Shown here: one piece after another, positions 4,599 through 41,000 of the stretch
How positions within the stretch are numbered: position 1 is the first letter of the stretch
Layout of the letters: each line of letters begins with the position of its first letter
DNA from: Leucoraja erinacea
Lineage: Eukaryota
Direction: 5' to 3'
Length of the DNA: 64,000 nucleotides
Assembly (NCBI RefSeq): GCF_028641065.1
Contig: NC_073411.1
Location: forward strand, 10,788,001 to 10,852,000
The notes under the pieces: model-generated
Databases searched by the model: none
What the model was told of the DNA's origin: nothing
Seen by the model: the letters and a program-made list of their open reading frames with translations, nothing else
Made by a program: the position numbers and the translations under genes

Positions 4599-5489
4599 CT
4601 GATTATTTGTATTTTAGTGGGTGGAGAAAACACACATGGTTACACAACATTTGGCCATACTGTTCTAAGTTTTCTACTTTTCATCTTAATGCAGCTCTAC
4701 ACATCTCTCCCTTCAGCATCTCCCTCGATCCTACTTCCCAACCCACCACCGGCATCCTATTACTCCTTTCCAACATCACTATCTCTGGGGAAACAGGCTC
4801 ATATCTTCCAACATTACTTCAACATCACCCTCACCCTTTTTAATTACCATCTTTCGGCACCACCCTCCTCTATTCAGCAAATGTCCACCACCTCTCCCCA
4901 TTTGTTTTCCATCTCCCAACCTTAATGCACTGTAATGAACTGCTCGCACTCTCTGCCTTTCTCCAAGTAGCCACACCTCCTTCCCGCTAGCCCTTCCCCA
5001 CAAACCTGACCTCAGATCTAACCCCCCCTCCCCCCTCCCTCGAGAAATGTTTATTTTCCCAGCACACACGTGACAGTGGCGACAAAGATCCTGTAGCTCG
5101 CTGGTGGCAAGAAACAACCCCCGGTCCTCCTCTACCACCCCCCCTCCCTCCATACCTTCCCTCCCTGAGTCCTATCTCACTCCAACCTTCACTACCCACC
5201 TCTCTATCTTCCCTCCCACAAGATCTCTATCACCCCTATCTCTTCTCCCCTTTTGGTTCCACCATCCTTCCGTTCCTTCCGTCATTCTACTCTCCCCGTC
5301 CCTACTCCCCTCCCCACTCCCCCCGCCCCGCGCACTCCTCACTTTCCGCATCCTCCCATCGTCCCCAACCTCCCTCCCTCCCACACGTCCTCTCCTCCCT
5401 ACCACACCCTGCTCCGTCCCTCCTTCCACCCTCCAACTTTCACGCCCACAGAGGCGGGGAGGTGGCCGGCAAATCACCGTGCACCATCA

Positions 5490-6570
5490 TGTCCTGAAGA
5501 GAACATGTAATGTCTGAAGGGAAAAGTATTTGTCTGAAGAGAAAATGTATTGTCTGAAGAGGAACATGTAATTGTCGAAGAGAACATGTAATTTGGCTGA
5601 AGGGACGGAACATGATTTGTCTGAGGAACATGTATTCTACTGAAGAGGGAACATGTATGTCTGAAGAGAACAGTGCCGTCTGAAGGGACGCTGTATTTGT
5701 CTGCCGAGAGTAAATGTATGTCTGAAGAGAACATGTATTGTTGAAGGCCCCACATGGCGGTTGTATGAGACTGGAAACAGCAGATTTGTGCTCCGAGAGA
5801 ATACAACCCAGATCTCTGTTGAAGAGGACAGTCGTAATTTACAGGAAGGGAAACCATGATTTGCTCATGAATGAGAACACTGTATTTGTCTGAAGAGAAC
5901 ATGTAAATTGTCGGAGGAGAAACCGGGTGGGGGAGTGTGAAGAGCAACATGTATTGTCTGAAGAGGAACATGTATTGGTGTATGAGAGAGAACATGGGTA
6001 TTGGTCGAAGAGGGGAGTCAAAAATTATGTGGTGTCTTGAGAGAAACGCTGTAATTTGGGGGTCGTGCACAGAAGTACCAGTATTGTTGGTCGTGCAACA
6101 CTCGAAGCAAAACGCGGGGGTGGGGGGGAGATAGTGTGTGTACTTGAAAGGTGGAAAAAAGCTGGCAGATTTGTCTTGGGAGGTGGAGGGCGCATGAATG
6201 GTGAATTTGCGGTATCTGAAGTGAGGACACGGAGGGGGGGGTGGAAATTTTGGATGCTGAAGAGAAACTTTTTTTGTCCTGAAGAGAACATAGGTATTGT
6301 GTCTACGAAGAGTGAACATGTATTGGTGTCTTAAGGGATAGCATGTATAATGTCAATGAAGAGAACATGTAAAAATAAAAGGTTCTGAAGGGAACATCGT
6401 CTTGGTGTCTGAAGTAAGTGAACATGGTATTATGTCTGTGAGGGGAGAAACAAACAGTATTGTCTATAAGTGACTACATGATGTTGTCTGGAGAGAACAA
6501 AATAGTATGGAAGTTGGGTGGGGGATCGGAAGAGGAGACATTGTATTGTCTGAAAGACACCTGTATTTGT
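5490..6570. repeat. Degenerate ~20-bp minisatellite (TCTGAAGAGAACATGTATTG)n
   Basis: Dozens of scrambled copies of CTGAAGAG(G)AACATGTA(T)TTG. Confidence 0.7.
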
Positions 6571-9500
6571 CGTAGTAAGAGGGCAACACGAAGAGAGACG
6601 GTAGGTACAAAAAGGCTGGCGACCTCAGCTGGTGCAGCCTGCATCCGAATTGGAGAAGCGAAGACACAGAATAATCAGTTGTGAAAAGCTGTGGGCTCTG
6701 GAGAGAGGTAGGAGAACTTCTTCATGTACATATTGCGTGAGATATCGGCAGTGGGAAAGATCGACAAACAGATGGGTTCAGAGGACTGCCAGTTGCGAGG
6801 AAAAATTTGAAGGCTCACACATAACAAAAAGTCGTGGAGAAACTCAGCGGGTGCGCCAATCTATGGAGCGAAGTGATGATAGCCAAAAAACGGGTTTTCG
6901 GGGGTGCAATAACGACCTTCTGACAGAGGACAGTTGTGTTTAAAGAGGAACTCAGATGATGGAAATTCGAAGGTAGACAAAAGTGCTGAGTAACTCAGCA
7001 AATGGTCAGCAATACTGGGAGCTGATCGGATAGGCAACCCTTCTTCAGACTCAAACAGGGTGGGGGGGTGTGGAAGAAAAGAAAACAGGCGGGGGGGGTC
7101 ACATATCAGAAACTATGCTGTGTCGCATAATTAGTTAGAAAAATCCGGGGACAAATAGACTATCCAAGTTGTGGGGGTGAAACACAACTTGAGAGTTGAC
7201 ATTGCTGTCTACCGATATCAGCCACGAATAAAAAAGACGCACAGACACACACAAATAGTCTTTTAACGGTAGACATCCCCGCCCAGCGGAACTCAAAGTT
7301 TCGCGCACGTGAGGGAAGTCACCTGCGTGGGTTTCCTGGTTCCTCCTCCTCTTATCTCCCGTGGTAAAAGTCGGGGTCTCCCAAACCCCTCGCTGATCCT
7401 GCCGTGCTACGATGGCCCGTGTTCAGGCCCGAAATCATCGGACAGGATGATCGTAACTCCACGACCGTCTGGAATAAGAAACATGTCTGGGAATCATACG
7501 TATTTTGAGAACATGGAGTCCATTTGGGCGCACTAGTTCTTCCGAGAAACGCCCGGCTCCCAAAAGTCCCCACAGGCCGAAGCCTGGTCGACGGAAGAGT
7601 CGCGGGCAGAAAGGGGGGTTACTGCCCCCCGCGCCCTGTCTAAAAAGATAAAGGATCCCAAGACATCGTGGTGCGATATTGATGTCACCAAGCGAACAAA
7701 AAAAAAGATGCTGCAAAAAGAACGGGGGAAAAAAAAAAAGAAGCGCAAACAAAAGAAAGGGGGGGGGGTAGGCTGGAAGCTCCCTGCGAGGGGGGGACCA
7801 CAGTGCGGGGGGTAACCCTCCGCGTGTTTGAAAGGGTGCAGCCAAGCCCAACACTTTCCGTAGCTTCACTGTCACGACACTCCAGGTAAGGGGACACTTA
7901 AAGCGCCGCTCCGCATAAGTAGAAAAAAAGAAAAAAAATTAGATCCAGTGCTGCAACCGCTGGCTAGAATCTTTGTCTGTCCCCGGCCTAAAGAGCGAAG
8001 CGCGCACCGGCAGATCTTCTCCACCGTCTGCAGAAGGAATAGACATGAAATGTGACCCATCCCTTCCATCCAGATTGCTGCCTGCCTGCTGAAGTTCACT
8101 CCATCAGTTTTGTGTCTCCCCTTCGATTAACACCATCTGCAGTTCCTTGGTCCTCACACTCATTGTTTAACCACCCATGGTCTGCTTATTTTCGCACAAC
8201 ATCCCGATATGTTAAACATTAAATTTTAAAATACATTCCTCAGACACCCTGCAAATAACATTAATTTCAGCTGATTTTTAGTAGGGTGAGAAACAAGAAC
8301 TGCCGGTGGGGTGTTGGATGAAAAAAGAGGAGGACCTGCAGATGCAGGTTTAACCACCAAAGATTGACACCAAAGGCTTGATGCTAAACAGGCACAAGTA
8401 AAAAATCTGGATTTACCAGCAGGTCAGGCAAGAGAATACTCATAAGACCAGAGAGGGTGGGGCTAAAGAGCGTGGGTGGAGGGCCTTCGGAGTTATTCCA
8501 GTACTTGTAGCTTGGTTAATTAGACCATGACATTCTATGCACCGATTTTGCCTTCTAATGCGCGAGAGCCGAACAAGTTATAAAAATTAGCGAGGAAGAG
8601 GGAAACTTAAGAGGTCAAGCCTACTTTAGTGTTGAGTTAGAATAAATCATAGCTTTATTGGTCAACGTGTGATCGGAGAGGTTCTCCAATGAAAGTGTCT
8701 TTTGTTTGTTGTGGGGCGTGTGACAGTTTCGGTTACTATCCTACTGAATATGGAAACTGGGGAGCAAAATCCGACACTACGATAGTAGTGGCTAGGAACA
8801 TGTAAGAAACCACAGTTACTACATTGGCGATGGCTGACCACAAACAGAACAAGTAGACAACCGAAGCAGTGAAAACACTCGCATGGAACAATAAGGACAA
8901 ACAGTCTAGTATGCGCAAAAATAAAAATGATTTGTTTTTAGTCTTGTGTTTTTTGGTTTTTGCTTTGCGAAGGAGCAAGAGTGCATGGTGACAGCATCCG
9001 TCGCCCTCGCACAGGAAAACGCAGTGGGTACTTGTTCCGCCAGATCACCGGGGATAGTTAACAGCAACCTCACCACAACTGAGCATGGTGCATACAACCG
9101 GTTGTAACGTTTTGGATCCTGCCAGTGTTGACTGCGAAAGGTTCATGGAAAGGGGGGGGGGGGGGACCCAAGCTCCATAATCTACTGCTTGCCCGGTTCT
9201 TACTTGGCAGCGCGTGTCCCGGGCCGGTTTGTGGTCTCGGGGGGCGGACTCCTTGCCCTCCACACAGCGATCCTTAAGTTCCCCGCATAATCTCCTTACG
9301 GGGGGGGGCGGGGGCCACTCTCGCTGCGTATTGCTTGAGGGTCCCTACACTCGTGTGCTCACATGTGTGCGGAGGTCCCAACCAACCGCTATGACAAACC
9401 TTAGTGGCAGTCAGCTGTACGACAGAAGTCTATATAGTTCCCGGGCAAACAGTCACTACTGTACTGCTATCATCATGTACGAGCAGCCAACTCCCCCCCG

Positions 9501-12500
9501 GTAATGGGCACGGCGCTAACTCTAGAAGTCTCGCACGTTCAATTTTCGATTACAGCCTCCTCCGAAGTCTTCCCTGGTCCACGACGCTCCTGCCTCAACT
9601 CTTCCCTCTCCTCTGACATTACCTTCTTGTTCTCTAATAAGCGAGTTCGGTATATGCATGAAGAAAAAGGCAAAGTATCCATGGGGATTGTCAAAGGTGG
9701 CATTCGTGATAAAAAAAGATGAAACACAGCTCCAGCTTAGCATTAAACTGGTGTATAAATGGGGTTAGAGTATGTCAGTACAATGATTAATCCAATCTAG
9801 TGATAGAGTACAAGGGGCCAGACTCAACAGGGACGCACGACAGGTGTCGTTTTGTTTTATGCACATTAATTACGGTGTCTTAAATATCTAGGGCGTGACC
9901 TTCATAACCCAAACACCTCTGGAAGTCTGCAGAAGCCGTCTCAATACGTGCGCATTGTAAGGACATGGTCTGGCATTTGCTCTCTAGGGGGTTATGTGAC
10001 GACAGCTTCTGCTCCAAGGCTGAGAGGTGCAGCAATGACGTTCGGCGCCCTGCCCCTCGTAGGAACAGGATTTCCTCTGATGTTGGAGCAGAGTTGAGCT
10101 GGAGTCACAATGGGGGGTGCTTCTCCCTGCAGGCTGCTGTGTAATCCTGGGCCAACCAGCCGTTCCGGCCATTGGCACACAGATCCCCTAGGTATCTACG
10201 GCCGAAACGCGTCCGACGGAGGGGGGGGTGGGTGGATGGGTGACACAGGGGATTGGTCGGCGTGGACATTGAGGAGGACAATCACTTTCTACAATTATAC
10301 TAAACTCCCAGTTACCATAAATACCAACAGTGTTATGCACTGGCATCGGTGCGAAGCGCTGAAATGGATTGAAATGCAAGTACTAGGTGTATCATACTGC
10401 AACAAACAAATCAAGCTGCCAAGAATGTTATCTCGCGTGACCTATGACCTGGGCATCGCGCAGGGAAGATTGAAATACCAACTATCGCCAGCCAGGAATA
10501 CATCAGACACCCACCTTGTAGCGTCCGATAATGGAGTTTCCCGAACTTCCTACTACTGCTTGCGTTCACGATGACAAGCAGGGAGACCACCACGACCATT
10601 CTATGGCGGCAATCCCGTGCTCCAAGAACTTTCCATCATTCTCCTAGCTGGTTTTCCGTCTCGTATCCCCTACGGAAGCCGTGGAGGTGCTCGCACATGC
10701 TCTGAGCGGTTTTCCCTCTGCTCTTCGACGGATCGCGCACACACATGCTGCTCACCTGCCTTCCTCTCCTCTCCGACTGTCCCCATCGCTCACTGATGGC
10801 CTTTAATTGTTGTCCGAACGGCCAGTGCCGCGCTCTCCCCCGGACGATGCTCGCAGGGGGGGTGGGCCCTTGCCTCGGCACGGGCTCTAAGTGCAAGCAC
10901 GTGGGGTAACCCAATCGCCAATCTTGAGTTGTTAACATGGCCAATTTTGGCGTCTGACAAATGGGGAGGGTGTTCGCGAGAAAGGAATCCAACTAATCTA
11001 CCAGCCTGTGCCGCGTACAACAGTGGTTGGCAAAGAAAAAAAAAAGTCGAGTCACACACACTAAAAAAATCACATAAAACTCAAAAGGCGCCGTCCACTC
11101 TCTCACCCTCAACGGCCCTCATACGCTCTCGGCAGGTAACTCATCCATACGGGGTGGGTTTGAATAACGTAAAATGATGGCGCCTATACATACCTCTAAA
11201 ATATAGTCCTATTCGGTACCTGCCTAAATGTTTCTTAAACGTCGCATTATACCTTTAGAGTGGAGATGAGGTGGAGTTTATTTAGCCAGAGTGAACCTGT
11301 GGAATTCATTTCGCGGCAGTGGAGACCAAGACATTAGGTATCTTTAAAGTTAGCAGAGATTGAGAGATTCTTGATTAGGAAAGGTTGCAAAGGTTAGGAT
11401 CACATTGAAGACAGCTCCCCATCTGCGTTTGGAGCTGTTCCGACCTGCTCCCTCTGGAAGGCGCTATAGGTGCATCAAATCCAGGACAGAAACAGAGACT
11501 CAGGAATAGTTGCTTTTGGGTGCCGAGAATATATCTACTATAAATTTCACATTCACAACATGCACTGACTACACCGCCCAACACGGAGTCCATCTGTATA
11601 TACTGTTATATAATAGAGTAGCGCCGCAGATTTGGTGCACCCTATTGCCCCCCCCGCCCCCTCCCAATACTCCCTTCGGTTTTTTTGTTTTTTTTCCTGT
11701 GTTTCTGTGATTTTTGTGCTAAAATTGTATGTATTCAACTGGAGTACGAGCAGCTTTCAGTTTCACTGTACATGTATTATTGACAAATAAATGTCATCAT
11801 ATCTTCATGGCGGTGCTTGGCTCGAGGGGCCGAATGGCCTACTCCTGCACCTATTGTCTATATGCCGTGGACTGAATACCCAAATCTCTGCCCTACGTTT
11901 TATTGTCGTGTATAGAGGACATGGAGACATACGACCAGTTGGGGGGTAGGAAGAAATCACACCAAACTGCTTGGGGGGGTGGTTGTGGCACTAAATATAG
12001 ACACAAATAAACTCGCTTAGATGTCCACACTCATGGGAGCAAAAGGAATAAGTCCAGGGTGGGAACCTTTTCATGTTGGATGCCGCATTACGTTAGCTGT
12101 AATCTACATGAGGCCGGCAATCCAAGACAACTTATCAATAAGATTACCTGTGTCCGGCTCGTGTTACATTATTTTGTGTGCAATAGCCCTCCATGACATA
12201 TACTAATATGGTTTAATGTCGTGCCAGTGGTCAGGTCGTGGTAGGATTTGATTGGTGGAAAGGAAAATCTCTCTTTTACTCTTTGGTATTTGTAAATAGG
12301 TTCATTTAAAAATTAAAAAAAAATAATAAGACTAACGAAAACATATTATAACTAAAATAAACGATTGTCTACAAAATTTGTGCTTCCTATCAAAGTGGCT
12401 GCACTTAATGGCCTGGAAGGCCGCAGGTTCCCCACCCCTGGAATAGGTGATGCTTCAGGTCGAGACCCTTTTCACCAGAAATGCTGCCTGAACCCTCTGG

Positions 12501-12899
12501 GGGGGAGTTTAGCGTTCCAGGCATTAGCCTTGGAGAAATTGTCCGGGGCTTACCGTGCGGAAGCTTGCCATTGGATGTCTTTGACTTTGCAGAGGAGTTC
12601 ACCAACCAAGAGAGCAGAGGCACAAAGTATGGTCTCTCTGTACTCTCTCTCTGTGGTAACTTGCCGTCTACTCGCATCTAGCACTCTCCCGCGATTCCCT
12701 CCGCTGTCTCGGAATAGTCTTCGACTGTCTCGTATCTCGCTCTCTTGTCTCCGTCTAACGCGCTCGCGGTCTCCGAACTAGTCTGGGACAGCACGCGGTC
12801 GCTCTCATCTATCTCTGCTCTGCTCGCGGTGCCTAAGACTCCGTTAAAGTACGCGCTCTCCAGGCCAAAGGCTCAAGAAGCGCTGTCTAGGCTAGAAGT

Positions 12900-14210
12900 A
12901 GCGCTACATCCCCCTCCGTCTCTCTCTTCTCTCTATCTCCCCTCTCAGCTCTCTCTGTCACTCTCTCATCACTCTCCTGATCTCCGACTCTCTCTCTCTC
13001 TTCCTCTCCTTCTCTCTCTGAACGGTCTCTCTCTCTCTTCTTCGGTTCCTTCCCCGTCGTTTCCCGTTTCTCTTGGATCCTCCGGCCGTGGTCTGCTTGG
13101 CTCGCCTGTCCGCGGCGCTGGCTCCCCGGGCCCTCACCGTTCTCCTCTCTTTCCCCAAGTCTCCCTCCTTCCCCTTTCGCCCCTCCGATTTCCCTTTTCC
13201 CCCTGATCCCTGGCTCCTCTCGGTCCCCGTGCCTGTAATCGCCCTTTTTCTTCTCCTTTACTCCCCAGATCTCACGGTCGTTCTCTTTCTCTGCAATCCA
13301 GTGCGCATTTCCCTGTCCCTCCCCTTCTCCCCCCTTCCTTTCTTATCTTCCTGTTTTTTGCCCTTGGCCCCTTCGCTTCGGTCTCCCCTCTCTTCCTTTC
13401 TTTCTCCCGTTTTTCCCTTTTTGTCGCTCTCTTCCTGTCTCCTCCTTCTTTTCTTTCTCCCCCTTCCCCCTTTCTCCTCCACCCCCTCTCCCCCACATTC
13501 CCCCCCTCTCTTCCCCCTTTTTCCCCTCTCGTCTCCCGTCCCGTTTATCTCCTTTTTTTCTCCCCCTCCTCCCTCTCCCTCTCCCATTCTCTCCTCTTTC
13601 CATTCCTTCCTCTCCCTCCCCCACCTTTTCCCCGTTCTGCTTTTCTTTCTCCCCTTTACTTTCTACCTCTTTTTCTTTCTCCTACTTTTTTCCCCTTCTC
13701 ACCTTCCCCTATTCCTTCTTCTTCCTTCTTTTTGTTCATCTTTGCCCCCTTCTTTTTCCCCTTTCCCTTTCTTGATGTTGCCTCTCCCTTCCTTTCCTTT
13801 CTTTTCCCTTTTCTTCTGTCCCCCTACTTTCCCCCTCCCCTCCTCTTTTTTCATCTTCCTTTCCCCCTCCGCCTTTTTCCCCCTTTTTTTCCTTCTGCTC
13901 TTCTTTTCTCCCTCCCTCCCCCCGTTCTTTCTTTTGACCTTCTTCTTTCTCTCCTTTTTTCTTCTCCCATTCCTTGTTCCCCTCTCTCCTTTTCCTTTTT
14001 TGTGTTCTCTTTCTCTCTTCCTTTTTTTCTCCCACTCTCCTTTCCCCCCCTTCCTGATTCCTCTGTCCTTCGCTCACACCCATCGTTTGTTGTCTTTTCC
14101 CCTTTTCTCTTCTTCTCCCCCTGTCTCCTTCTCTTTTCCCTCTCTTCTTTCCCCTCCTTTTTGTTTTTCTCTTCTTTTCTCCTCCTCTTTTCTTTACTAT
14201 CAGTTTTCAT
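12900..14210. repeat. CT-rich low-complexity tract
   Basis: Almost pure C/T; source of the spurious 383-aa and 202-aa ORFs. Confidence 0.85.
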
Positions 14211-15179
14211 TCATAAACACTTAAAAAGACACAAAAAAGCTGGAGAAACTCAGTGGGTGCAGCAGTATCTATGGAGCGAAAGAAAAAGGCAACGTTTCGG
14301 GTCGAAGCCCGAAACGTTGCCTTTTTCCTTCGCTCCATAGATGCTGCTGCACCTATATAACCATATAACAATTACAGCACGGAAACAGACCATCTCGGCC
14401 CTACAAGTCCATGCCGAACAAATTTTTTTCCCCTTAGTCCCACCTGCCTGCACTCGTACCATAACCCTCCATTCCCTTCTCATCCATATGCCTATCCAAT
14501 TGCTTTTTAAATGATACCAATGAACCTGCTTCCACCACTTCCACTGGGAGCTCATTCCACACCGCTACCACTCTCTGAGTAAAGAAGTTCCCCCTCATAT
14601 TACCCCTAAGTTCACCTGCTGAGTTTCTCCAGCTTTTTTTGTGTACCTTCGATTTTCCAGCATCTGCAGTTCCTTCTTAAACACTTAAAAATACACAATG
14701 TTTTTGTTTTCAAATACAGACTCACCAACAACCACTCTGAATAAAGCTACACACTCATTTCTCTAGAATGTTTCACTGCTTTAATGTATGAGAGGGCCAA
14801 TCTTCACAAATTCATGTTCAATGCTCAAACTGAAACAATGTTCATCAGTCGGCTTTTGGAAGTTGAAACATACAGAATTTTTTTTTCCAAATAAATCCTT
14901 TGAAAAAAGTTGCAATAAAAAAATAAATAAATAAAAATTAAAAAAAAGTTGCAATAATTTGACAAGACAGGAATTAGTGTGATTCAATAGTTTCAAAATC
15001 TTTGCTGATAATTTCCTGTCCTTTAATAATGCCAATAATTTGTGCTCACGTATTGCTCAAGCTACTGAATCCAACACAGACAGGAACAAGCAGATAGAAG
15101 GAACTGCGGGTGATGTTGCAACGAAAAGTCACTAAGTGCTGAAATGGACAAAACAATAATGTCCTAGTGTAGCGGCACC

Positions 15180-15900
15180 TAGTGGTTCGGCCACTCCTCC
15201 TATGCAAATCCTCGGCAATCCTGGGAAGGTATCACGAGATATATACTAGGGAACACCCCCAATACAAGTCCTGACCTTCCCTCTCTCGCTCTCTTGCTCT
15301 TCTGCTTCCTCTCACTTCATGAGTGTGTCCTGCCACCGCAGCAGGAGCACAACCGAGCCCACGAGGCAACAGCCTCTCAACAACTACGACTATTATGTTA
15401 AAGTGTTAAACGTCCATGTATTTGAAACCTACAATGCCCGAATAAAGAATCCATTTATTCACAACGTTTGCGCCTCTACACTAGCTTCTTTATAGGAATG
15501 CTACCCAGAAACATCAATAGACAATATACAATGTACCATATACAACACCAATAGACAATGCTGTCTTAGGGATTAATCAGTGTGTAGCCTTTGACAGGGT
15601 TATTACTACTCGAGTCTTCAAAGGCTTCACAACTCTTAACTGAGTGCAGTTGTTAAGAAAGTGGAATTGATGTGGTCATTCCATTCTGGATGAAAGAGTG
15701 GGAGCTGGGTAAGTGGCAGTTCAACTACAGAACAACACAGCAGTGGGATGGAGTCCATACCTTGTTGACAAGGTTTGTAAATACAGAGCTAATTATGTTC
15801 AGGTTACTATGAAGTTTGTTTGTCAGTGCTGTTTCTGAACCTGTCGGAGCTCTGTAATATCCTGCAGTGATCCCACAACACACTAGATCACTTAACCAAT
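15180..15900 (+). pseudogene. Putative highly decayed PIF/Harbinger (HARBI1-like) DDE transposase remnant
   Basis: Short collinear, frame-shifted motifs read by eye: VLGINQCVA (15563; cf. VLGAIDCTHV), KGFTTLN*VQ (15620; cf. KGFHSLNVQ), WDGVHTLLT (15744; cf. GDxGYxxxxxLLTP), LNLS-GAL*YP (15835; cf. CLDRSGGALQYSP). Confidence 0.45.
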
Positions 15901-17127
15901 AATTGCTTCCACCTTATGAGGATAACGTCACCCTCATTTTATGTATTGTCTAATCTTTCCTTCGCTCCGTAGATGCTGCCTCACCCGCTGAGTTTCTCCA
16001 GCTTTTTTGTCTACCTTCCATTTTCCCCAGATAGGGTGGTCTGAAACCACTGGCCACTCAGACATGGGGCAAGCTTTTTAGGACTGAAAACAGACACAAA
16101 ATGCTTGAGTAACTCAGCAGGAAAGGCAGCATCTCTGGAGAGAAGGAATGTGTGACATTTCTAGCTGAGACCATTCTTCAGACTGAGTCAGGGGAGAGAG
16201 AAACTAGAGATATGGAAGGTTAAGGTGTGAAATGACAAATCAAAGATGATAGTGATCAAGGAAATGTACAATGGTTCATTGTTGGCTGAGGAGAAGGTGA
16301 CAACGAGGCATACAAAGTAAAATTAATCAGGACAGCGAAAAAAGAGAGAGAGAGTGGGAGGGGAAGAGGGGAAGAGAGTGTTAGTTAAGGTTAGAGAAAT
16401 CTAGACTGAGAGACATCTGAACATTTGGACTGATATGAGGATGGATTTCTTGACAACAGGCTGAGTTGGATGATCAGCCATGATCATATTGAATGGCTGT
16501 GCAGGCTTGAAGGGCCGAATGGCCTACTCCTGCACCTATTTTCTATGTTTCACTAACACTGTAGACAATGGAAGCTAAGTCATTGAACATGTAAGGTGGT
16601 GATAAGCAGATATCTCGACACAAAGCACCACTAGGTTTGGGGCTATAACAAGAATATGGTAACGATCATGTTGAATGGTGGAATGGCTTCAAAGGGCAGA
16701 ATGGCCTTCTCCTATGTAACCACTGATAAAATAGTTGTCTGAATGTCAATCAGATTAGTAGACAACAAACTACTGTGTTATGTGCTTCCTGGCCTTTTAT
16801 ACCTGAATTATGGACTAGTAAACTCCTGCCCATTAATAGTCCTGAAAAACATGTTCAATGGTCATTCAACATTCCAATAATACTTCCATCCAATAATACT
16901 TTCATTCACTGATGTCCGATACTCAAGATTGTAGTACCATAGTTAAAAGCAGCCACCCAAAAACATTAGACTTGAAAACAATGTAATACTTTATTGCTTA
17001 TGCAACTATCAGTAGACCTACTAATTTTACCTTTATCAAGTCCTCTAGCTGTTCCAACACGAGACTCCCTTGTGGCTTTGCTCAAGAGCTGGCAGTTACT
17101 GTAGCTCGGTCATGGGGTGGAAAATGC

Positions 17128-17975
17128 TCAAGGGCGCCGGTCCCATTGAGCTCGAGGGGGTCTGATCGCCGACTGCAGATTCAATGGTGCTGCTGCAGGA
17201 GCAGCTGGGGCTGGAGGAGATGGCGGGTGAGCAGACGTGCTGTTATCCAGAGAGGGACCAGCAAGAGCCACTCCAGCTGGCTCACTCAGATGATGCCGCG
17301 ACTCATTGACCATGCTGCCATTGACCTGCGGCACAGCAGACTGGAGGAGGTCAGAGACGTTACTGAAGCCCCTATCAATGCGCCCACCCAGCCTTTCTAA
17401 ACTAGTGGATATGGTGCAAGCCAGGGCCTGAATAGCACCAGTTTGAGCCTCAATCAATGACGCCAGTGTGGGTGTCACAGGCTCCTGGACAGAGGGCTTC
17501 ATTGCTGCGTCCACAGAGTTGGCAACACGCTCCATGGTAGACTGGAGAGTAGTGATGCCCTGCGCCACAACTCCACAAAATATAGAAGCAGACTCTTCTA
17601 CACTCTCAGACAGGGTGAGACAACTCTTGGGTAGACTGTCCAAAGCTTTGAGCAACTGATGATGTTCATGGAAAAGCTTTCTTTTAAAGGCAGGGCCGGT
17701 TAAATCTGCATCTTCATCCTTTTCGACATAGCTGGGACCAGAGGTTGCCCTCGAGTCATCTGTCTCCTCTACAGTCCTTTCCTCTATAGCCAGCTCCTGT
17801 TCGTTACTGCCGAATAATTCATAGTGAGCCGATCCATTCAGCTGAGCATCCATGCTACCGGAGATGTTCATGTCAGTGGTGATGTACTGGAATGACGGGG
17901 CTGGCGACTGTGCATCTTCTGTAAAATGTCCCCCCTCCATCTCCTGCCTCATAAAGCCTAGGTAATGTGTCAGAT
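17128..17975 (-). CDS. Myb/SANT-like gene exon 3 (848 bp, includes stop)
   Basis: tttacAG|AT CTG ACA; phase 1 matches exon 2; long open frame with acidic, helical and Pro/Ala-rich segments. Confidence 0.8.
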
Positions 17976-20900
17976 CTGTAAAGAGGGAGAGGGACAAGAA
18001 TTAGCGAGCCTTGGGATGGTCAGGTAGTAACAGCACACGCACAGCTCAAGGATGATAATGCTGCCTGTGTGATGAGTTAAAACAGCAGATAAGAGAAATA
18101 GGAAGGTACCCTGTGGTACTTGGCCTCCAGCCTTGCCATTCTCGAGGTTTCTCCTGCTGTTTGGCCCAATGATGTCCAGGGCTTCCTGCTCCATCTGGGT
18201 GAGATTTAGAATGGAGGCTGGCCGTTCCTCGCAGCTGGTTCTTTTCCTTCTTTTGTGTGCCAACTTCTCCTGCAGAAATAGTGGGAGTGAGTTAGTGTTT
18301 CATTGTTGCAACACATTACCCAGATGAGCGAACCAGCTGCATGCAGAAGGAATGACGCCAGTTAACTGAGTATACACCAAAGATTATAGAGTGGAGATCC
18401 GCTCTATAATCTTTGGTGTACATTGCTGTATCATGTGCATGAAAAAAAAGCTTCCCTTTATTTACTATCGTTTGACTCATCTTTGCAGCTTAACAGTTTC
18501 TGTGATGCAAGAAGCAGATGTCCAATATGTGTGCAGCATACTCTATAATGACAATGCGATAGTGACTTGACACAAGGAACTGCAGATGCTGCTTTACAAA
18601 AAAGTAAAAAATTGTTGGAGTAATTCAGTAGATCAGACAGCATCTCTGGAGAACATGGATAGATGATGTTTCGGGTCAGACTCCTACTTAAGATAATTAC
18701 TAGATCGCTTTTCTTCAAAATGCTGTTAATCATAGCGGAAAAGGGAAAAGCTTCCAGTCATAACTCACATCGGTTCCAAAGCTTAGGTAGATGAAAATGC
18801 TGGAGAATCTCAGCGGGCGAGGCCGCTGAGTTTCTCCAGCATTTTAAATTACCTTCGATTTTTCCAGCATCTGTAGTTCCTTCTAAAACATTGTTTCCAA
18901 AGCTTTGTCATCTTTAAGCTTGACTATAGAAACAGATACCAGGCTGATTGCCCATTAAAAAAAAAACATTTAATGTATTTGAGGGGTGGAAGATTGCAAC
19001 CTTCAGGTGGTCCGCCCGGTTTCAACTAATGCAATCAACTCGACGTGCACAAATGGAAGATCAAATAGAACAAGTTGTCCAACAACTTTAGGCTGTGCAC
19101 ACCACACGAAAGAAGAAGAAGAATGTATTTGAAATCATCAAAACCTCTTTGTTTTGTCTCATTCCCAGTTCTGATGAAGGGTCTTTGTCCAGAATCATTA
19201 ACTGTTATTCATTCCACAGATGCTACCTGATTTGCTCCACCTTCCACCGCCCCCACTTTACCACCTTCATCGCTCCATCTGGCTTTACATTTCACTCCCC
19301 CTCTATTTATCTGACACCCTTTAGTTTCCTTTTGATCTCTCGCCTTTGTCCACCCATCTCTCATTTACCGGCTATAACTTGCCAATCTTTGTTCGCCCCC
19401 TCCTCTTTCCAGCTTTCTCCCCACTTCTTTCATCAGTCTGTAGAAAGGTTCATACCCAAAAGGTCATCTGTCCATTCCATCCACAGATGGTGTCTGACCC
19501 ATCAAGGTAGTCCTGCAATTTATATTTCAATCAAAATTGTTCCTTTTGCCATCTTAACTATCAACACTGAAATCATTTGTCTCAGACTTTCTTCTGGCTC
19601 TCAGTGCAATCCCATTCCCCCACATATTCTTGCAACCTTCCTCTCTCACATGGCCATCAACTCCACCTATTTCCTCTACCATCTCCCTACATTTGCGGAA
19701 ATTTAGTGACCAATATTGCTGCCAACTTTTGGAGATTGCGTGAAAACCAGATCACCCAAGAGAAACTGATCATAGGGAGAGCATGAATGTTCTTCACAAA
19801 TAGCACCAGAGATCGGGATTGAACCTGTTTTGTTGCAGATATCAGACAACGGCATTATCTGTATATTACTGTCGCTCCCTGCAGTCCTTATCCCACGATA
19901 CATCAAATCCAATTCACACATTGTGCTTGACAATTCAAATGAATGCTGGTTCAGTAAAATTTGACTTTAAAATTTCTCATCCTTATTTTCACACCCTTTA
20001 TTGGTGTTACTTCTTCACCTGTTCTACAACCGCTAAAATATCTAATCTACTATTCTTACACTCTTGTACTCGAGCATGATTGCACTTATGCATGTCTTTT
20101 TACATACAGTTCAGTAAAATAATTCTATGCACAAGTCAGTGGATATTTCTAAGGCAGAGATGGATAGATTTTTGATTAGTACAGATGTCAGAGGTTATGG
20201 GGGAAGGCAGAAGAACGAGGTTTGGAGGGAGAGATAGGCCATGATTGAATGGCAGAGTACACATGATGGGACGATTGGCCTAATTCTATTCCTATCACTT
20301 ATGACCTTATGACCTGAAGAAGGAATTAGATAAATATATGGTGAAGACAAATGTACAAGGCTACTGAGGAGATGGTGTAGGATAAGATGGCACTGTAATA
20401 ATATTGATTTTTTAAATGTTATCTTTGTGAATTCCATTTACAGGCCTATTATGCTGTAAGAATTTCATTATTCTGTTTTCAGAACATATGACAATTAAAA
20501 AGCTTTATTCTTGGTAGAAAACTAGTTCAGAAATTACCAGCTAGTTCATCTGCTGGGTTCCTGTAACTGTTCTACAATTATATAAAGGAAGGTTACTATA
20601 AGCATTTCAAAAGGCATTTAAGGTGAAGTTTCAAAATAAACTTATTAGGAAACTGGAGCCAACATGACAAAAACAGCGAAAGCAAGCAAAAGTGCTGATT
20701 AATGCGAACTGTTGCCTTTCAGAATGGAGTGGGAAGTGCATTTCCCTCCAGGGGGGAAACTGTAGTTAGAAATAGGTTTTGTCGGTTAAGAGCAGGCTGG
20801 AATAATGGGTCAGTTCAAACAGTTCTGTACGGCATGTGGACCCACGGAAATTGTATAATTTATTAGTTTGATTTATTATTGTCACCGATATATAGTGACA

Positions 20901-21969
20901 TTTTTTGTTTGCATACTATCCAGTCAAATCGTACTATACAGTTACATTCAAGCCATACACAAGTACAACAGGTAGTGCAAAGAGAAAAATACCAGAGTGC
21001 AGAATACATTGCTACAACATTATAGCTAAAACAAAAGTGTAGGTAGAAAAAGTGCAAAGGCCATAAGGGGGTAGGTTGGGAGATCAGGACTACATCCTTA
21101 GTTTATGAAAGGGCTGACAAAAATGCTGGAGAAAAGAAGGGCTTTTCAGTAGTCTGTCAACGGCAGAGAAGAAACTGTTCCCAAATCAGGTGGTAAATGC
21201 TTTCAAGATTTTGTATCTTCAACCCGACAGGCGAGTGGGAAAGAAAGGGTGACCAGGTGCAAATGATTGAGACAATGAACCATTGATGATGGTTTACAAA
21301 AATAGACATAACGTGCTGGAGTGACTCAGCAGGTCAGGCAGCGTATCTGGAGGCCATTGATAGGCGACGTTTCAGGTCGGGATAAATAGGCCTTGATTAT
21401 GTTGGCTGCTTTCCCAAGACATCGTGAAGTGTAGATGGAGTCAATGGGGGGTGGAGCTGGTTTATGTTATGGATATCATCCACAATCATGCAGGGCATGC
21501 ATCTCACACCCTTGGGATACAGGGGACAGTTCTGAAGAAGGATCTCGTCCTGAAACGTCACCCATTCCTTCTCTGCACATATGCTACCTGTCCCGCTGAG
21601 TGACACCAGCATTTTTGTGTCTATCTTCGGTGCAAACCTGCACCTGCAGTTCTGAAATCTGTCGACACCTAACAGGTTGCAAGTGTCAGACTGTGGTCCA
21701 GTGGGGCTGACCACCTGGCGTCAGTCACCCAGGCTTACCTTAGCAGTCCAGGTCAGGCCATTGAACTTCTTGCGGCATTGCAGCCAAGTCTTGGGCACCT
21801 CACTCTTGGCGTTGACGCTGTGTGCCACCTCGACCCAGGCCTGGTGCACCATCTCCCTGGGCACACTCCGGCCCTGGGAGGGGAAAAACACCTCCCTGCG
21901 AGCCCTCACCTGCTCCAGCAGAACCTGCACTGCTCTGTCACTGAAGCGCGGAGTCCGGGGCTCGGACAT
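17128..21969 (-). CDS. Myb/SANT-like DNA-binding domain protein (Myb_DNA-bind_5 type; Harbinger-derived, NAIF1/MSANTD/MYPOP-like), 3 exons, 412 aa
   Basis: Exons 21969-21739 (ATG in GCAGCCATG context), 18269-18110 and 17975-17128 total 1239 nt in frame. The N-terminus RTPRFSDRAVQVLLEQV...AWVEVAHSVNA...TWLQCRKKFNGL...KEKLAH...LTQMEQEALDIIG fits the trihelix Myb/SANT-like pattern. AATAAA lies at 16995-16990. Confidence 0.85.
18110..18269 (-). CDS. Myb/SANT-like gene exon 2 (160 bp)
   Basis: tgcAG|GAG AAG TTG GCA CAC...CCA CAG G|GTacct; includes the basic NLS-like stretch KRRKR. Confidence 0.8.
21529..21563 (+). ncRNA. Putative minimal hammerhead ribozyme (variant stem II)
   Basis: CTGAAGA-AGGAT(CTC)GTCCT-GAAACGTC-ACC. 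Confidence 0.45.
21739..21969 (-). CDS. Myb/SANT-like gene exon 1 (231 bp coding; DNA-binding domain)
   Basis: MSEPRTPRFSD...LTWTAK|GTaagc, phase 0. Confidence 0.85.
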
Positions 21970-22270
21970 GGCTGCGGCCGGCGAGGGGAGACAAGGCGGG
22001 AGGGAGGAGGGAGGGATGGACGACGGTTGGGGCCGATGGGCGGGGCCAACACCCATCGGAAGTCCCGCCCCCATCACGTGGTACACCGGCCAATAGCGGG
22101 CCCGCCCGCCCCGTCAGTCAGGGCAGCGGCGGCCAATGGGGCGCGCGGCGCCGATCCAGGCCCCGCCCACGCCGGCCCGATGTGCGCCCGCAGGAAAATT
22201 GGCTTCTCAAGATGGCGGCGGCCGGCCAGGCCTGGTCGCGGCCGCTAGACGTGGCCTGGACCCCCTCGTG
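21900..22270. promoter_or_regulatory. CpG-island promoter of the Myb/SANT-like gene
   Basis: CpG-dense; GC boxes (CCCGCCC), E-box CACGTG at ~22075, two CCAAT boxes (~22090, ~22133), YY1 consensus CAAGATGGCGGC at 22208-22219. Confidence 0.7.
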
Positions 22271-22389
22271 TGGACCCCACTGGGCTGGAGAGGGTGGTTA
22301 CAGCTTTTATTCTCAGGTTAGATGCCCGCAGGGGAGGGATAACCTGGGAAAATCTGCCTGGCCAGAGGCCGCCAATGAAGGAAATACAT

Positions 22390-38000: not shown

Positions 38001-41000
38001 TATTGTGATGTTTTATGGAATGTTACAAATCTAAAATGATGAATTACTTTAAGGCATTTCATCTCAATGAGGTTCATTGAGAAACTATGAATGTCAAATG
38101 CATTGGTTTATTGGGGCAGCACAACTAGCAAAGCTGCCTCTTCGTGCCTCCAGAGACCTGGGTTTGATGCTGACCTCGGATGCTATCTGTGTGGAGTTCA
38201 CATCTTGTGCCTCTGACCGCATGGGCTTCATTCAGTTGCTTTGGTTTCCTCCCACAATCCAAAGATGTGTGGGTCGGTAGACTTATTGGCCACTATAATT
38301 GCCCTCTAATTTGTAGGTGAGTTATGGCGTTGGGGCCAGTTAATTAAATTTAATCAGGAGTGGATACTTGGAATGAAAAGTGAAATCTCTACCGAAATGG
38401 AAATAATCTCAGCGTTTCTGCTTCTGGTGTTGGCGTAGCAACAAATCAAAGGCTNNNNNNNNNNNNNNNNNNNNNNNNNNNNNNNNNNNNNNNNNNNNNN
38501 NNNNNNNNNNNNNNNNNNNNNNNNNNNNNNNNNNNNNNNNNNNNNNNNNNNNNNNNNNNNNNNNNNNNNNNNNNNNNNNNNNNNNNNNNNNNNNNNNNNN
38601 NNNNNNNNNNNNNNNNNNNNNNNNNNNNNNNCAGATTCTGTTTCCATGCAGCATTGCATCATTAACGCAGACATCTGGTCAGACATCCAATTGGACATTC
38701 TGAATCTAAATAATTATTTTCTCAGGATGGAAATATCAAATATCAGAGGGCGTAGTTTTAAGGCGAGAGGAGCAAATTTTGAAGGAGATGTGTGGGGCAA
38801 GTTTTTTTTACACAGATTGAGTGAGCTGCCATGGATGGTGGTGGAGGCAGATATGATTATCACATTGAAGAGACCATTGGATGGGTACATGGGGGAATGG
38901 AGAGATATGGATTATGTGGCAGGCAGATAAGAGTTGATCTTGACATCATGTTCAGCATTGACGGGTCGATGGGCCTGTTCCTGTGCATTCTGTTCTGTTC
39001 TATGTTCTAAAGTGGAAATTTTCAACCACCATGTGAGATAAAGCAGTTTGTACATTCAAATGTACTGTTTTCTTTTTCAACAACTTCCCTTCCTCAGGTT
39101 CTCAAACACCAAGTCACAAACTATACGGTCCTTTCATCACTGGAGCAGGAGAGGGTACTGTTCATTCAGACCCTGCAACTGCAGCTGAACCTGTAAGTAG
39201 ATCTAATGTGAACCTGTGGACTTGGACCATTGGGTCTCCTCAACATTGCAGCTCACCCTAACCACACGACTCTGATGTTAGCAGTTACATTAAGAGTAAC
39301 TCTATAAAGCCGGTTGGGGTGAGGATGAAATAGGTGGGAGGCCTTGATGAGAAAATGCACCAAATAGCAACTAAGAATGTGTAGGAGGGAACTGCAGATG
39401 CTGGTTTACACTGAGGATGGACACAAAATGCTGACGTAACTCAGTGGGACAAGCAGCATCTATGGGTAGAAGGAGGAATGGGTGACATTTCAGGTTGAGA
39501 TCCTTCTTCAGACTGAGTCAGGGGAGAGGGAGACACAGAGATATGGAAGGGTAAGGAGTGAAGATGAGGACAAAGCTCCAGGAAAAAGTAGACTAGATCA
39601 TTGGTCGATAGGGGAAGGTGACAATGGAGTAAGATTATTGGCCAAGTATTCACATACAAGGAATTTGTCTTGATGCTCCGCCCACAAGTAACAACATGAC
39701 ATACAGTGACAGTTACGAATGACTCAGAAAACACTAAACATTATTAATAATAAAACATTAATGGGAATTAAGATGCAAGGCACTGAAGATCTCATTGAAT
39801 GGCAGAGCACCCTCAAATGCAGGAACAATCTTACATTTCAATGTTCCTATAATCTGAAAAAATTGTATTCCTCATGCAAGATAAGTTGTATCATAGGGGT
39901 TGAATAATAAAATCGATCATATCATGACTATTTTCAGAAATAGATAGATAGATAGCCTTTTATTGTCATTCAGACTTAGTCTGAACGAAATTGCAGCAGT
40001 CATACATATAATACAATACAATAAAACAACAATAAACACACATTAACATCCACCACAGTGAGTCCACCCAGCATCTCCTCACTGTGATGGAGGCAAAAGT
40101 CTTAGGTCGCAGTCTCTTCCCTCCCCTTCTCCCTCTGCGCTGGGGCGATATTTGTGGCAGAATTGTGGCAGAAGTTCAAAAAGTGTGATGTTTGAATTTG
40201 CCTTAGCTCTCTCACCATAAAGTCACGGAGGCATTCTGCTCGTTGATTATAATCGGATGTTGTGTCCTTGGTTTCAAAGAGCCGTCAATCGGGATCACTC
40301 GAGGAATCAGGAAATGGGATGAATCTGGATCTAATTCCCAATCCGGCAAGTAGTTCTTCTTCAGTTAGTAGAATGCAAATATTGTTGCTGTTACAAACAC
40401 CTCTATGTCAAAAGTATGCAGAGCCATTTCTACCTTCAACAGTTCTTCTTTTTGCAGCCTCGGGTAGAAGTGTTTTGGAAATTATCTTTGAGAGCTCATT
40501 TTATACCTTACTAGACCAACTCCCCCAATGGTGTGATCCCCCAACCCAATATTCCACTATGCACCCGTCTCCTCCAATGGAACTGAAGCCGTTCTCAAAA
40601 GTAAGATTCCAGCACTGCCCTGCCTCTTGAAAAAAAAATCCATTGACACCTCCCCTGCCTGCTGCAGCAGTGAAAAGTTCAGTGTTCCTGTCTTGCAACA
40701 TTGTTTTGAAGTGTGCTGGAAGCTGATAGGAAGAAGCAGCCGTCAACGAATCAAAAGGCAGGAAGGGATCCGTACTGCAGGCGGACGGATTTGAGTTTTA
40801 TATATATACCTTATGAGGGGGGGTTGGGTTGGGGGTGGGGCGGGGTGGGGGGGGGGGGGGGGGGGGGGTGTGCTGGTGAGCATTGGATAAAGATAAAGGT
40901 GCAGCCTGTAGATTCTGTGACCTCACTCACCTGAACATCCGTGAGATACTTTAAACTGCTTCCATAACATTAGTGTTACAGGAAATAATATTCATGGAAC

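What the first reader, a model, noticed from the sequence alone, without database searches (positions are those of the whole stretch)
15180..22270. Possible domestication of a two-gene Harbinger transposon: intact Myb/SANT gene facing a decayed transposase
Seen: an intact, spliced 412-aa Myb/SANT-like gene (minus strand) with a 3.5-kb repeat-filled intron, a CpG-rich promoter and a polyA signal. About 1.2 kb past its stop, on the opposite strand, are four collinear but broken motifs resembling a HARBI1-type transposase (VLGINQCVA, KGFTTLN*VQ, WDGVHTLLT, LNLS-GAL*YP). Established: autonomous PIF/Harbinger elements encode a DDE transposase plus a Myb/SANT-like partner, often convergently, and vertebrate NAIF1, the MSANTD genes and HARBI1 derive from them. 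Inference: this is an immobilised element whose DNA-binding gene was kept as a host gene while the transposase decayed in place. I found no TIRs around the pair. It may be a chondrichthyan-specific domesticated gene. The transposase match was read by eye and is short.
Basis: partly seen in the sequence, partly recalled or inferred. Interest (0 to 1): 0.75.

Follow-up and report, generated by a model that had tools for sequence, protein, structure and literature searches.

The report
Transposon-born shark-and-ray DNA-binding gene trio
This is a real, spliced skate gene, one of three related copies found in sharks and rays, that likely descends from the DNA-binding helper gene of a Harbinger transposon and likely acts as a gene regulator; the "decayed transposase" next to it scores no better than chance and likely lies in the gene's own long 3' tail.

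Summary
The Myb/SANT gene is confirmed: three exons, 412 aa, PF13873, both introns spliced in a transcript contig of a related species, single-copy depth, pN/pS about 0.2, and 403 of 412 aa identical to an Amblyraja radiata protein. It is paralog A of an A/B/C trio found only in sharks and rays in these searches. Its domain profile finds Myb genes beside real Harbinger transposases, so domestication before the shark-ray split is likely.

The transposase remnant is not supported. Pfam, tblastn, HMM and frameshift-aware alignment with 150 real HARBI1-type transposases score 15.1-16.0 kb at background. Simulations show 98-99% power at 0.3 substitutions per site, so only a much older remnant stays possible. 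RNA places the stretch in a long 3' UTR ending near 15,426.

Two further features emerged. In sharks, A and B are nearly identical within each species over aa 131-205 and 271-412, yet stay paralog-specific in the Myb domain and aa 206-270. This points to segmental gene conversion, which is not seen in rays or skates. All 9 A proteins checked also replace two nearly invariant helix-3 residues (D71G, R74W), suggesting altered DNA recognition. Verdict: new member of a known kind.

The parts
21739..21969 (-). Coding exon 1 (aa 1-77): Myb/SANT-like trihelix domain; carries the paralog-A residues G71 and W74 in helix 3
   Evidence: PF13873 E 3.8e-12; pLDDT 87.5; Zeste, GT-1 among best fold matches
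18270..21738 (-). Intron 1, 3469 nt, GT-AG, phase 0, rich in high-copy repeats; no Pfam transposase hit
18110..18269 (-). Coding exon 2 (aa 78-131): end of helix 3, basic stretch (possible nuclear localisation signal, by eye), short helices
   Evidence: (X1 record 6)
17976..18109 (-). Intron 2, 134 nt, GT-AG
17128..17975 (-). Coding exon 3 (aa 131-412 and stop): disordered acidic linker, predicted long helices 225-289 and 298-344, Pro/Ala-rich tail; holds the segments homogenised between A and B in sharks
16990..16995 (-).
15426..17127 (-). Likely long 3' UTR of the Myb gene, with high-copy repeat insertions at about 15956-16550
   Evidence: X1 contigs at exon-like depth (4.6-5.6); stranded run X23 shows the same orientation as the exons
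15454..15459 (-). Distal AATAAA, 28 nt before the end of an X1 contig at 15426; likely polyA site of the long isoform
15563..15865 (+).
21800..22300 (.). CpG-island promoter region; CCAAT, GC-box and YY1-like motifs seen by eye (labels recalled)

Best explanation
The window holds an intact, spliced, single-copy skate gene (paralog A of a shark-and-ray trio) that likely arose by domestication of a Harbinger transposon's Myb-like gene before sharks and rays split, and likely works as a nuclear DNA-binding regulator; the stretch behind it is likely its long 3' UTR, not a recognisable transposase. Shown: gene structure, splicing in a related species, excess of synonymous change, orthologs in 10 named elasmobranch species, and profile similarity to Myb ORFs beside Harbinger transposases. 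Predicted: a Zeste/GT-1-like trihelix domain, a disordered acidic linker and a long C-terminal helical region, likely a partner-binding module (untested). Inferred history: one domestication, then duplication into A, B and C/D. A changed its putative recognition helix (D71G, R74W), likely altering its DNA target. In sharks, linked A and B are repeatedly homogenised by gene conversion over most of exon 3, while selection likely keeps the Myb domain and aa 206-270 distinct. In rays and skates the conversion stopped early.
For: Gene: (X1 record 6 joins 21888-21738, 18268-18110 and 17975-17753 with 1 mismatch; zero RNA depth in two unique intron bins in X19, X23 and X1; DNA run X15 depth 41-52 over the unique exon bins, same as single-copy flanks). 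Selection: 10 synonymous and 7 non-synonymous among 17 listed coding differences, pN/pS 0.21, binomial p 0.002 (the list was truncated, 27 of 49 differences of the long contig shown). Range: all 31 hits and 43 of 44 hits carry shark or ray names (1 unnamed). A+B+C/D form one clade, SH-aLRT 99. Harbinger link: the family's Myb profile hits ORFs beside DDE_Tnp_4 transposases in 9 of 83 loci at E below 1e-5, best 1e-13; blastp of P0001 gives 24% over 148 aa, E 3e-5. Fold: Zeste TMq 0.74 and Z 8.5, GT-1 Z 8.1. No transposase. Conversion. Helix-3 change: G and W in 9 of 9 A proteins; D in 58 of 58 and R in 56 of 58 other matches.
Against: The Harbinger link rests on distant, mostly invertebrate-like elements at about 24-29% identity; no shark or ray element with both genes could be fetched. 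PF13873 also holds old host genes such as Zeste. Synteny could not be checked (no genome held). Fold matches have no Foldseek E below 0.001, and the top VIA hit is the EP400 SANT domain in TIP60 (Z 8.8), a protein-binding use of the fold. DNA binding and regulatory role are untested. Expression evidence comes from a related species at low depth, and the tool only guesses that X1 is RNA. Conversion segments were chosen after seeing the data and rest on predicted proteins, not DNA.
Confidence: 0.72

Rival explanations
1. One reading: this is the original insertion site, and a very old transposase remnant lies antisense in the 3' UTR, decayed beyond detection.
For: Geometry fits: convergent layout in 7 of 9 Harbinger loci, and the DDE core would sit about the right distance from the Myb stop. 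Motifs 1 and 2 each score about 8 bits, 19 codons apart against 25 expected. The chain ranks in the top 7-16% of controls. With repeats cut out, one of two parameter sets put the region at the 5% tail. Power falls to 72-75% at 0.4 and 22-47% at 0.5 substitutions per site. No elasmobranch transposase was among the 150 queries.
Against: Profile alignment 16-19 bits against control means 15-18 and maxima 20-31. Mean z 0.00 over 150 single queries, 3 above the maximum of 40 controls (about 4 expected). Shark rates give about 0.17-0.32 substitutions per site over 286 My (my arithmetic from PMC13100897 and the skate genome preprint), where power was 98-100%. With three paralogs, at most one locus is the original site unless the flank was co-duplicated.
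Confidence: 0.1
2. The gene is not transposon-derived at this depth but is a diverged duplicate of an older host Myb/SANT gene (NAIF1, MYPOP, MSANTD4 or similar), lost or unrecognisable in bony vertebrates.
For: Same Pfam family. The ESM Atlas lists a NAIF1 cluster at rank 5, score 0.89, a lead only. NCBI names some paralogs 'MYPOP-like'. No NAIF1, MYPOP or MSANTD sequence was available to place in the tree.
Against: The exhaustive search with exon 1 gave 38 hits. Of the 30 of 36 new ones I read, none looked like NAIF1 or MYPOP (judged from recall). The nearest relatives are diverse, full-length-similar proteins, shark-named where named, several seen in one species only, as expected of transposon ORFs; the C-terminal profile hits P0042 at E 4.5e-48. 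PMC9392472 reports MSANTD1, 2, 4 and NAIF1 as present in cartilaginous fishes in their own right.
Confidence: 0.12
3. The within-species identity of A and B in sharks is an artefact of gene prediction or of collapsed or mis-polished assemblies, not gene conversion.
For: Only predicted proteins were seen; several models are truncated or mis-spliced (P0009, P0014, P0016, P0025, P0026).
Against: The same-different-same pattern lies inside what is one exon in the window's gene, with seven fixed A/B differences in aa 206-270. It recurs in six same-species pairs from separate assemblies, with graded identity (71-100%). It is absent in the stingray pair (59%, 70%, 31%).
Confidence: 0.1
4. An ordinary, recently active Harbinger copy.
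For: Myb-like ORF of a family related to Harbinger ORF2.
Against: Single-copy depth, no TIRs, no transposase anywhere in the 64 kb, orthologs at 66-84% across sharks and rays where the model is full-length, pN/pS 0.21.
Confidence: 0.02

Closest known systems
NAIF1 and MSANTD1-4 (vertebrate genes domesticated from Harbinger Myb-like ORFs; PMC9392472)
   Same: Multi-exon host gene with one N-terminal Myb-like trihelix domain, purifying selection, expression, no TIRs; similarity to Harbinger ORF2 confined to about 100-150 aa.
   Different: Found only in sharks and rays here. It expanded into a paralog trio, whereas that paper found no sign of segmental duplication for the MSANTD genes. A and B show segmental concerted evolution. 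A has non-canonical helix-3 residues.
Autonomous PIF/Harbinger elements (DDE_Tnp_4 transposase plus Myb-like ORF)
   Same: Myb domain family; convergent layout seen in 7 of 9 fetched loci.
   Different: No transposase, TIRs or multi-copy state at this locus.
Insect co-domestications DPLG7/DPM7, APLG/APM, LPLG2/LPM2 (PMC9710019)
   Same: A Myb/MADF partner gene kept as a host gene.
   Different: There the transposase gene is kept too; here none is detectable.
Drosophila Zeste and plant GT-1 trihelix factors (structures 5cqq, 2jmw)
   Same: Best DNA-binding fold matches for aa 5-77; trihelix domain plus a distal long helix resembles their layout (layout recalled).
   Different: 15-19% identity; a functional analogy only, not orthology.

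Membership tests
Autonomous PIF/Harbinger transposon (or in-place remnant) | DDE_Tnp_4 transposase ORF or significant remnant next to the Myb ORF | tested here: not met
   power 98-99% at 0.3 and 72-75% at 0.4 substitutions per site
Autonomous PIF/Harbinger transposon (or in-place remnant) | Myb/SANT-like second ORF | tested here: met
Autonomous PIF/Harbinger transposon (or in-place remnant) | Terminal inverted repeats with 3-bp target duplication | tested here: not met
   only interspersed-repeat, low-complexity or 12-nt-or-shorter matches
Autonomous PIF/Harbinger transposon (or in-place remnant) | Multiple similar genomic copies | tested here: not met
   DNA run X15 (a related organism) at single-copy depth over unique exon bins; own genome not held
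Domesticated Harbinger Myb-like genes (NAIF1/MSANTD class) | Trihelix Myb-like domain with conserved aromatic residues | tested here: met
   (F9, W45 invariant)
Domesticated Harbinger Myb-like genes (NAIF1/MSANTD class) | Similarity to Myb ORFs of real Harbinger elements (E below 1e-5 in PMC9392472) | tested here: met
   profile E down to 1e-13; single-sequence E 3e-5 for paralog A and 1e-7 for paralog B, small database
Domesticated Harbinger Myb-like genes (NAIF1/MSANTD class) | Purifying selection and intact ORF over long times | tested here: met
   (pN/pS 0.21 on a truncated list of 17 differences)
Domesticated Harbinger Myb-like genes (NAIF1/MSANTD class) | Expression | tested here: met
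   in a related organism, low depth
Domesticated Harbinger Myb-like genes (NAIF1/MSANTD class) | Conserved synteny across species | not testable with these tools
   no eukaryotic genomes served; only matching contig lengths for A/B pairs
Ortholog of NAIF1, MYPOP or MSANTD1-4 | Clusters with, and is syntenic to, a named bony-vertebrate gene | tested here: inconclusive
   no bony-vertebrate name among the hits; reference sequences not available for a tree; Atlas lead 0.89
Co-domesticated PIF gene pair (DPLG7/DPM7 type) | Intact domesticated transposase gene beside the Myb/MADF gene | tested here: not met
   (whole 64 kb, both strands)

The most novel reading that the evidence does not exclude
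Sharks and rays built their own transcription-factor family from repeated Harbinger Myb domestications: the A/B/C trio plus at least four other multi-species groups. Within it, A and B work as a partner pair. Gene conversion keeps a shared C-terminal helical interface matched in sharks, while A's rewired recognition helix (G71/W74) retargets or damps B. The release from conversion in the ray/skate stem let the two diverge as the batoid body plan arose.
Probability: 0.15. Interest if true: 0.75.

Novelty: new member of a known kind. Interest (0 to 1): 0.47.

Why it matters
It adds a shark-and-ray branch to the Harbinger-derived genes, which PMC9392472 found by starting from human proteins and so could not see. 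It shows that such a gene can duplicate and diversify like an ordinary transcription-factor family. The A/B pair is a clean natural test of selection against gene conversion: conversion maps which residues must differ (the Myb domain, exon 2 and seven sites in aa 206-270), and it stops in rays and skates. The headline claim of a transposase fossil beside the gene does not hold, which lowers the surprise.

Tried and rejected
Transposase at 14.9-17.0 kb. Pfam on 12 read-through frames gave no DDE family, only one unrelated hit at E 0.19. tblastn with the motif-bearing ORFs from the fetched loci gave best E 1.1 in the region; with 150 distinct transposases, best E 0.72. HMM domain scores were at most 1.5 bits. 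Frameshift-aware alignment was at background under three parameter sets, with a held-out profile, with repeats removed and per query. No transposase family in intron 1 or upstream, and nothing above background in the whole window.

A second paralog in the window: none by tblastn or frameshift-aware profile. About 5-14 kb looks error-rich by eye, which limits this test there.

Viral contigs: no Harbinger motif or Myb relative; the 2 loci were not transposases. Homodimer prediction for aa 218-350: no verdict, score 0.12; not used as evidence. Whole-protein fold search: no E below 0.001. PDB sequence search with the Myb profile: best E 0.11. Run search: no RNA holder on record; the raw-read joint table was crowded by repeats and did not list the exon junctions. 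Cluster-member look-up could not be made, so cluster membership and accession details are open. Earlier-findings look-ups by place and by sequence were empty.

Literature: searches listed no paper on this gene or trio; the library lacks most subscription papers. Searches were on Zeste structure and shark rates. The supplements of PMC9179366 (fish Harbinger protein sets) and PMC9392472 were not opened and could bear on the nearest element.
Full report
1. The gene. The minus strand holds an intact 412-aa ORF in three exons (21969-21739, 18269-18110, 17975-17128) with GT-AG introns of 3469 and 134 nt. Exon 1 matches PF13873 Myb_DNA-bind_5 at E 3.8e-12. The product differs at 9 of 412 positions from Amblyraja radiata LOC116967519, so the window is from a skate. 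No genome is held.

2. Expression and copy number (four runs from related organisms laid on 14700-22300). One X1 contig joins all three exons across both predicted introns with one mismatch. X1, X19 and X23 have zero depth in two unique intron bins, so this is spliced RNA although the tool only guesses X1's kind. DNA run X15 covers the unique exon bins at depth 41-52, like single-copy flanks. Of 17 listed coding differences in X15, 10 are synonymous and 7 not: pN/pS 0.21, p 0.002. The list was truncated: 27 of that contig's 49 differences were shown.

3. The alleged transposase. I fetched real queries: 81 metagenome loci by motif scan (4 of 4 tested are PF13359) and 120 HARBI1-type proteins including fish and amphibian ones, 150 distinct sequences in all. 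None is from a shark or ray. Pfam read-through, tblastn and HMM searches found nothing at 15-16 kb. A frameshift- and stop-tolerant profile alignment scored 16.7 and 16.0 bits, reached by 60% and 34% of 274 control windows; under lax penalties 18%. With a held-out profile, simulated remnants were found above the control maximum in 100% of cases at 0.2, 98-99% at 0.3, 72-75% at 0.4 and 22-47% at 0.5 substitutions per site. Whale-zebra shark dS is 0.061-0.111 over about 50 My (PMC13100897, passages), and sharks and skates split about 286-300 My ago (10.1101/2022.03.21.485123, passages). That gives roughly 0.17-0.32 per lineage by my arithmetic; skates may be faster and the domestication is older than the split. 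The best chain is matched by 7-16% of controls. Across 150 single queries the mean z is 0.00; one repeat-free test reached the 5% tail. The remnant is therefore unsupported, though a very old one cannot be excluded. No TIRs were found.

4. What the stretch is instead. In stranded run X23, reads over 15208-15715 and 16732-16985 have the same orientation as the exons (5.6 against 1.3, 2.0 against 0.3, 4.1 against 0.1). The first two bins include some repeat signal. X1 contigs cover 15426-15912, 16127-16490 and 16774-17086 at exon-like depth. The first ends 28 nt after a minus-strand AATAAA at 15459-15454, where the DNA contig runs on. A long 3' UTR is the likely reading; a further X1 contig at 14720-14880 hints at a still longer end. 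The stretch differs from X15 at 11 of 620 letters, like intron pieces (1.6-3.6%).

5. Family and origin. All 31 hits to exon 3 and 43 of 44 hits to the Myb profile (one unnamed) are from sharks and rays; one search scored only 8000 candidates. They sort into paralogs A (this gene, 10 species), B and C/D, which form one clade (SH-aLRT 99, quick tree). Other multi-species groups (E to H) and single-species relatives surround them. The family's Myb profile finds ORFs beside Harbinger transposases in 9 of 83 fetched loci at E below 1e-5, convergent in 7 of 9 (5 of 7 distinct elements). Orthology to NAIF1, MYPOP or an MSANTD gene could not be tested directly; an Atlas NAIF1 cluster at 0.89 is a lead only. 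PMC9179366 (passages) did not detect Harbinger elements in elephant shark, which fits the absence of chimaera hits but does not prove it.

6. Structure and likely action. AlphaFold2 gives a confident trihelix domain (pLDDT 87.5). Its best fold matches are EP400 SANT (Z 8.8), Zeste (Z 8.5, TMq 0.74) and GT-1 (Z 8.1), none with Foldseek E below 0.001. The full model adds a disordered acidic linker and long helices 225-289 and 298-344 at moderate confidence. A sequence-specific nuclear regulator is the likely function, by analogy with Harbinger Myb proteins that bind TIRs (PMC9392472) and with Zeste; this is untested. All 9 A proteins matched carry G71 and W74 in helix 3, where other family matches have D (58 of 58) and R (56 of 58). 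That helix 3 reads the DNA is established knowledge for Myb-type domains (recalled). A likely has a changed target or reduced binding.

7. Concerted evolution of A and B. A and B share the listed contig length in 6 of 6 species where both have one, and have consecutive gene ids in Mustelus, so they are likely linked. Within-species A-B identity over aa 1-77 / 78-130 / 131-205 / 206-270 / 271-347 / 348-412 is: Heterodontus 62/66/99/83/100/95, Pristiophorus 62/59/96/85/96/95, Heptranchias 68/66/89/80/99/97, Rhincodon 61/64/85/74/92/71, Mustelus -/82/95/86/99/94, Cetorhinus -/64/87/77/100/85. The stingray Hemitrygon gives -/68/59/71/70/31. Trees group rows by paralog for exons 1-2 and aa 206-270, but by species or lineage for the rest in sharks. 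Batoid A and B separate, yet cluster together (93/95). AU tests reject one A clade in the converted part and reject same-species pairs in the retained part, 3 of 3 tested (segments chosen post hoc, quick trees, 22 rows with S. canicula P0026, truncated or near-duplicate B rows and two C rows left out). The S. canicula model has an A-type exon 2 but B-type residues at six of the seven diagnostic sites in aa 206-270. Segmental gene conversion in sharks, ending early in batoids, is the likely cause; a prediction or assembly artefact is less likely but needs DNA.

8. Verdict. This is a new member of a known kind, with two unusual features worth follow-up. Searches listed no description of this gene. 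Also seen as passages only: PMC9710019, PMC10027918, PMC8455134. An earlier AI note on another genome (e1-7851713) reached a similar general reading; it is not independent evidence, and I could not tell whether it concerns the same gene.

Noticed in passing
window 43203-43373 (+): Exon of a SEC24C/D-type gene, matching human SEC24D (E 1e-13) and SEC24C (E 2e-12) about equally. Next to NUDT18 it may be a third SEC24C/D ohnolog kept in cartilaginous fishes (paralogon idea recalled, untested).
   Followed up: partly
window about 4900-14200: Sequence looks error-rich, as if from an unpolished long read. It has broken ORF-like pieces on the minus strand at 9.5-13.0 kb that resemble an L1-type LINE by eye; Pfam found nothing. 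The first exon of the helicase gene was not found.
   Followed up: partly
window 22200-22320 (+): YY1-like motif, ATG and a possible splice donor on the + strand just upstream of the Myb gene, with weak opposite-strand RNA in X23 (depth 0.36): possibly a bidirectional promoter with a non-coding divergent transcript.
   Followed up: partly
P0056, P0075-P0081, P0083, P0087 (group E); P0050/P0071/P0072; P0062/P0069/P0070/P0084; P0067/P0088: Further multi-species groups of elasmobranch Myb/SANT proteins. Group E spans sharks, rays and skates with very short branches and shares the C-terminal helical region with A/B/C (E about 1e-12 to 1e-15): likely more domesticated genes.
   Followed up: partly
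P0026 (Scyliorhinus canicula): A-type exon 2 but B-type residues through most of aa 206-270: conversion may have overrun the retained island in catsharks.
   Followed up: partly
P0086 and P0084 (Scyliorhinus torazame): Two proteins with different Myb domains but almost the same C-terminal two-thirds; domain swap or prediction artefact.
   Followed up: no
window 14256-14353: Near-perfect 46-nt inverted repeat made of head-to-head copies of a common interspersed repeat.
   Followed up: no
window 38455-38631: Assembly gap (run of N).
   Followed up: no
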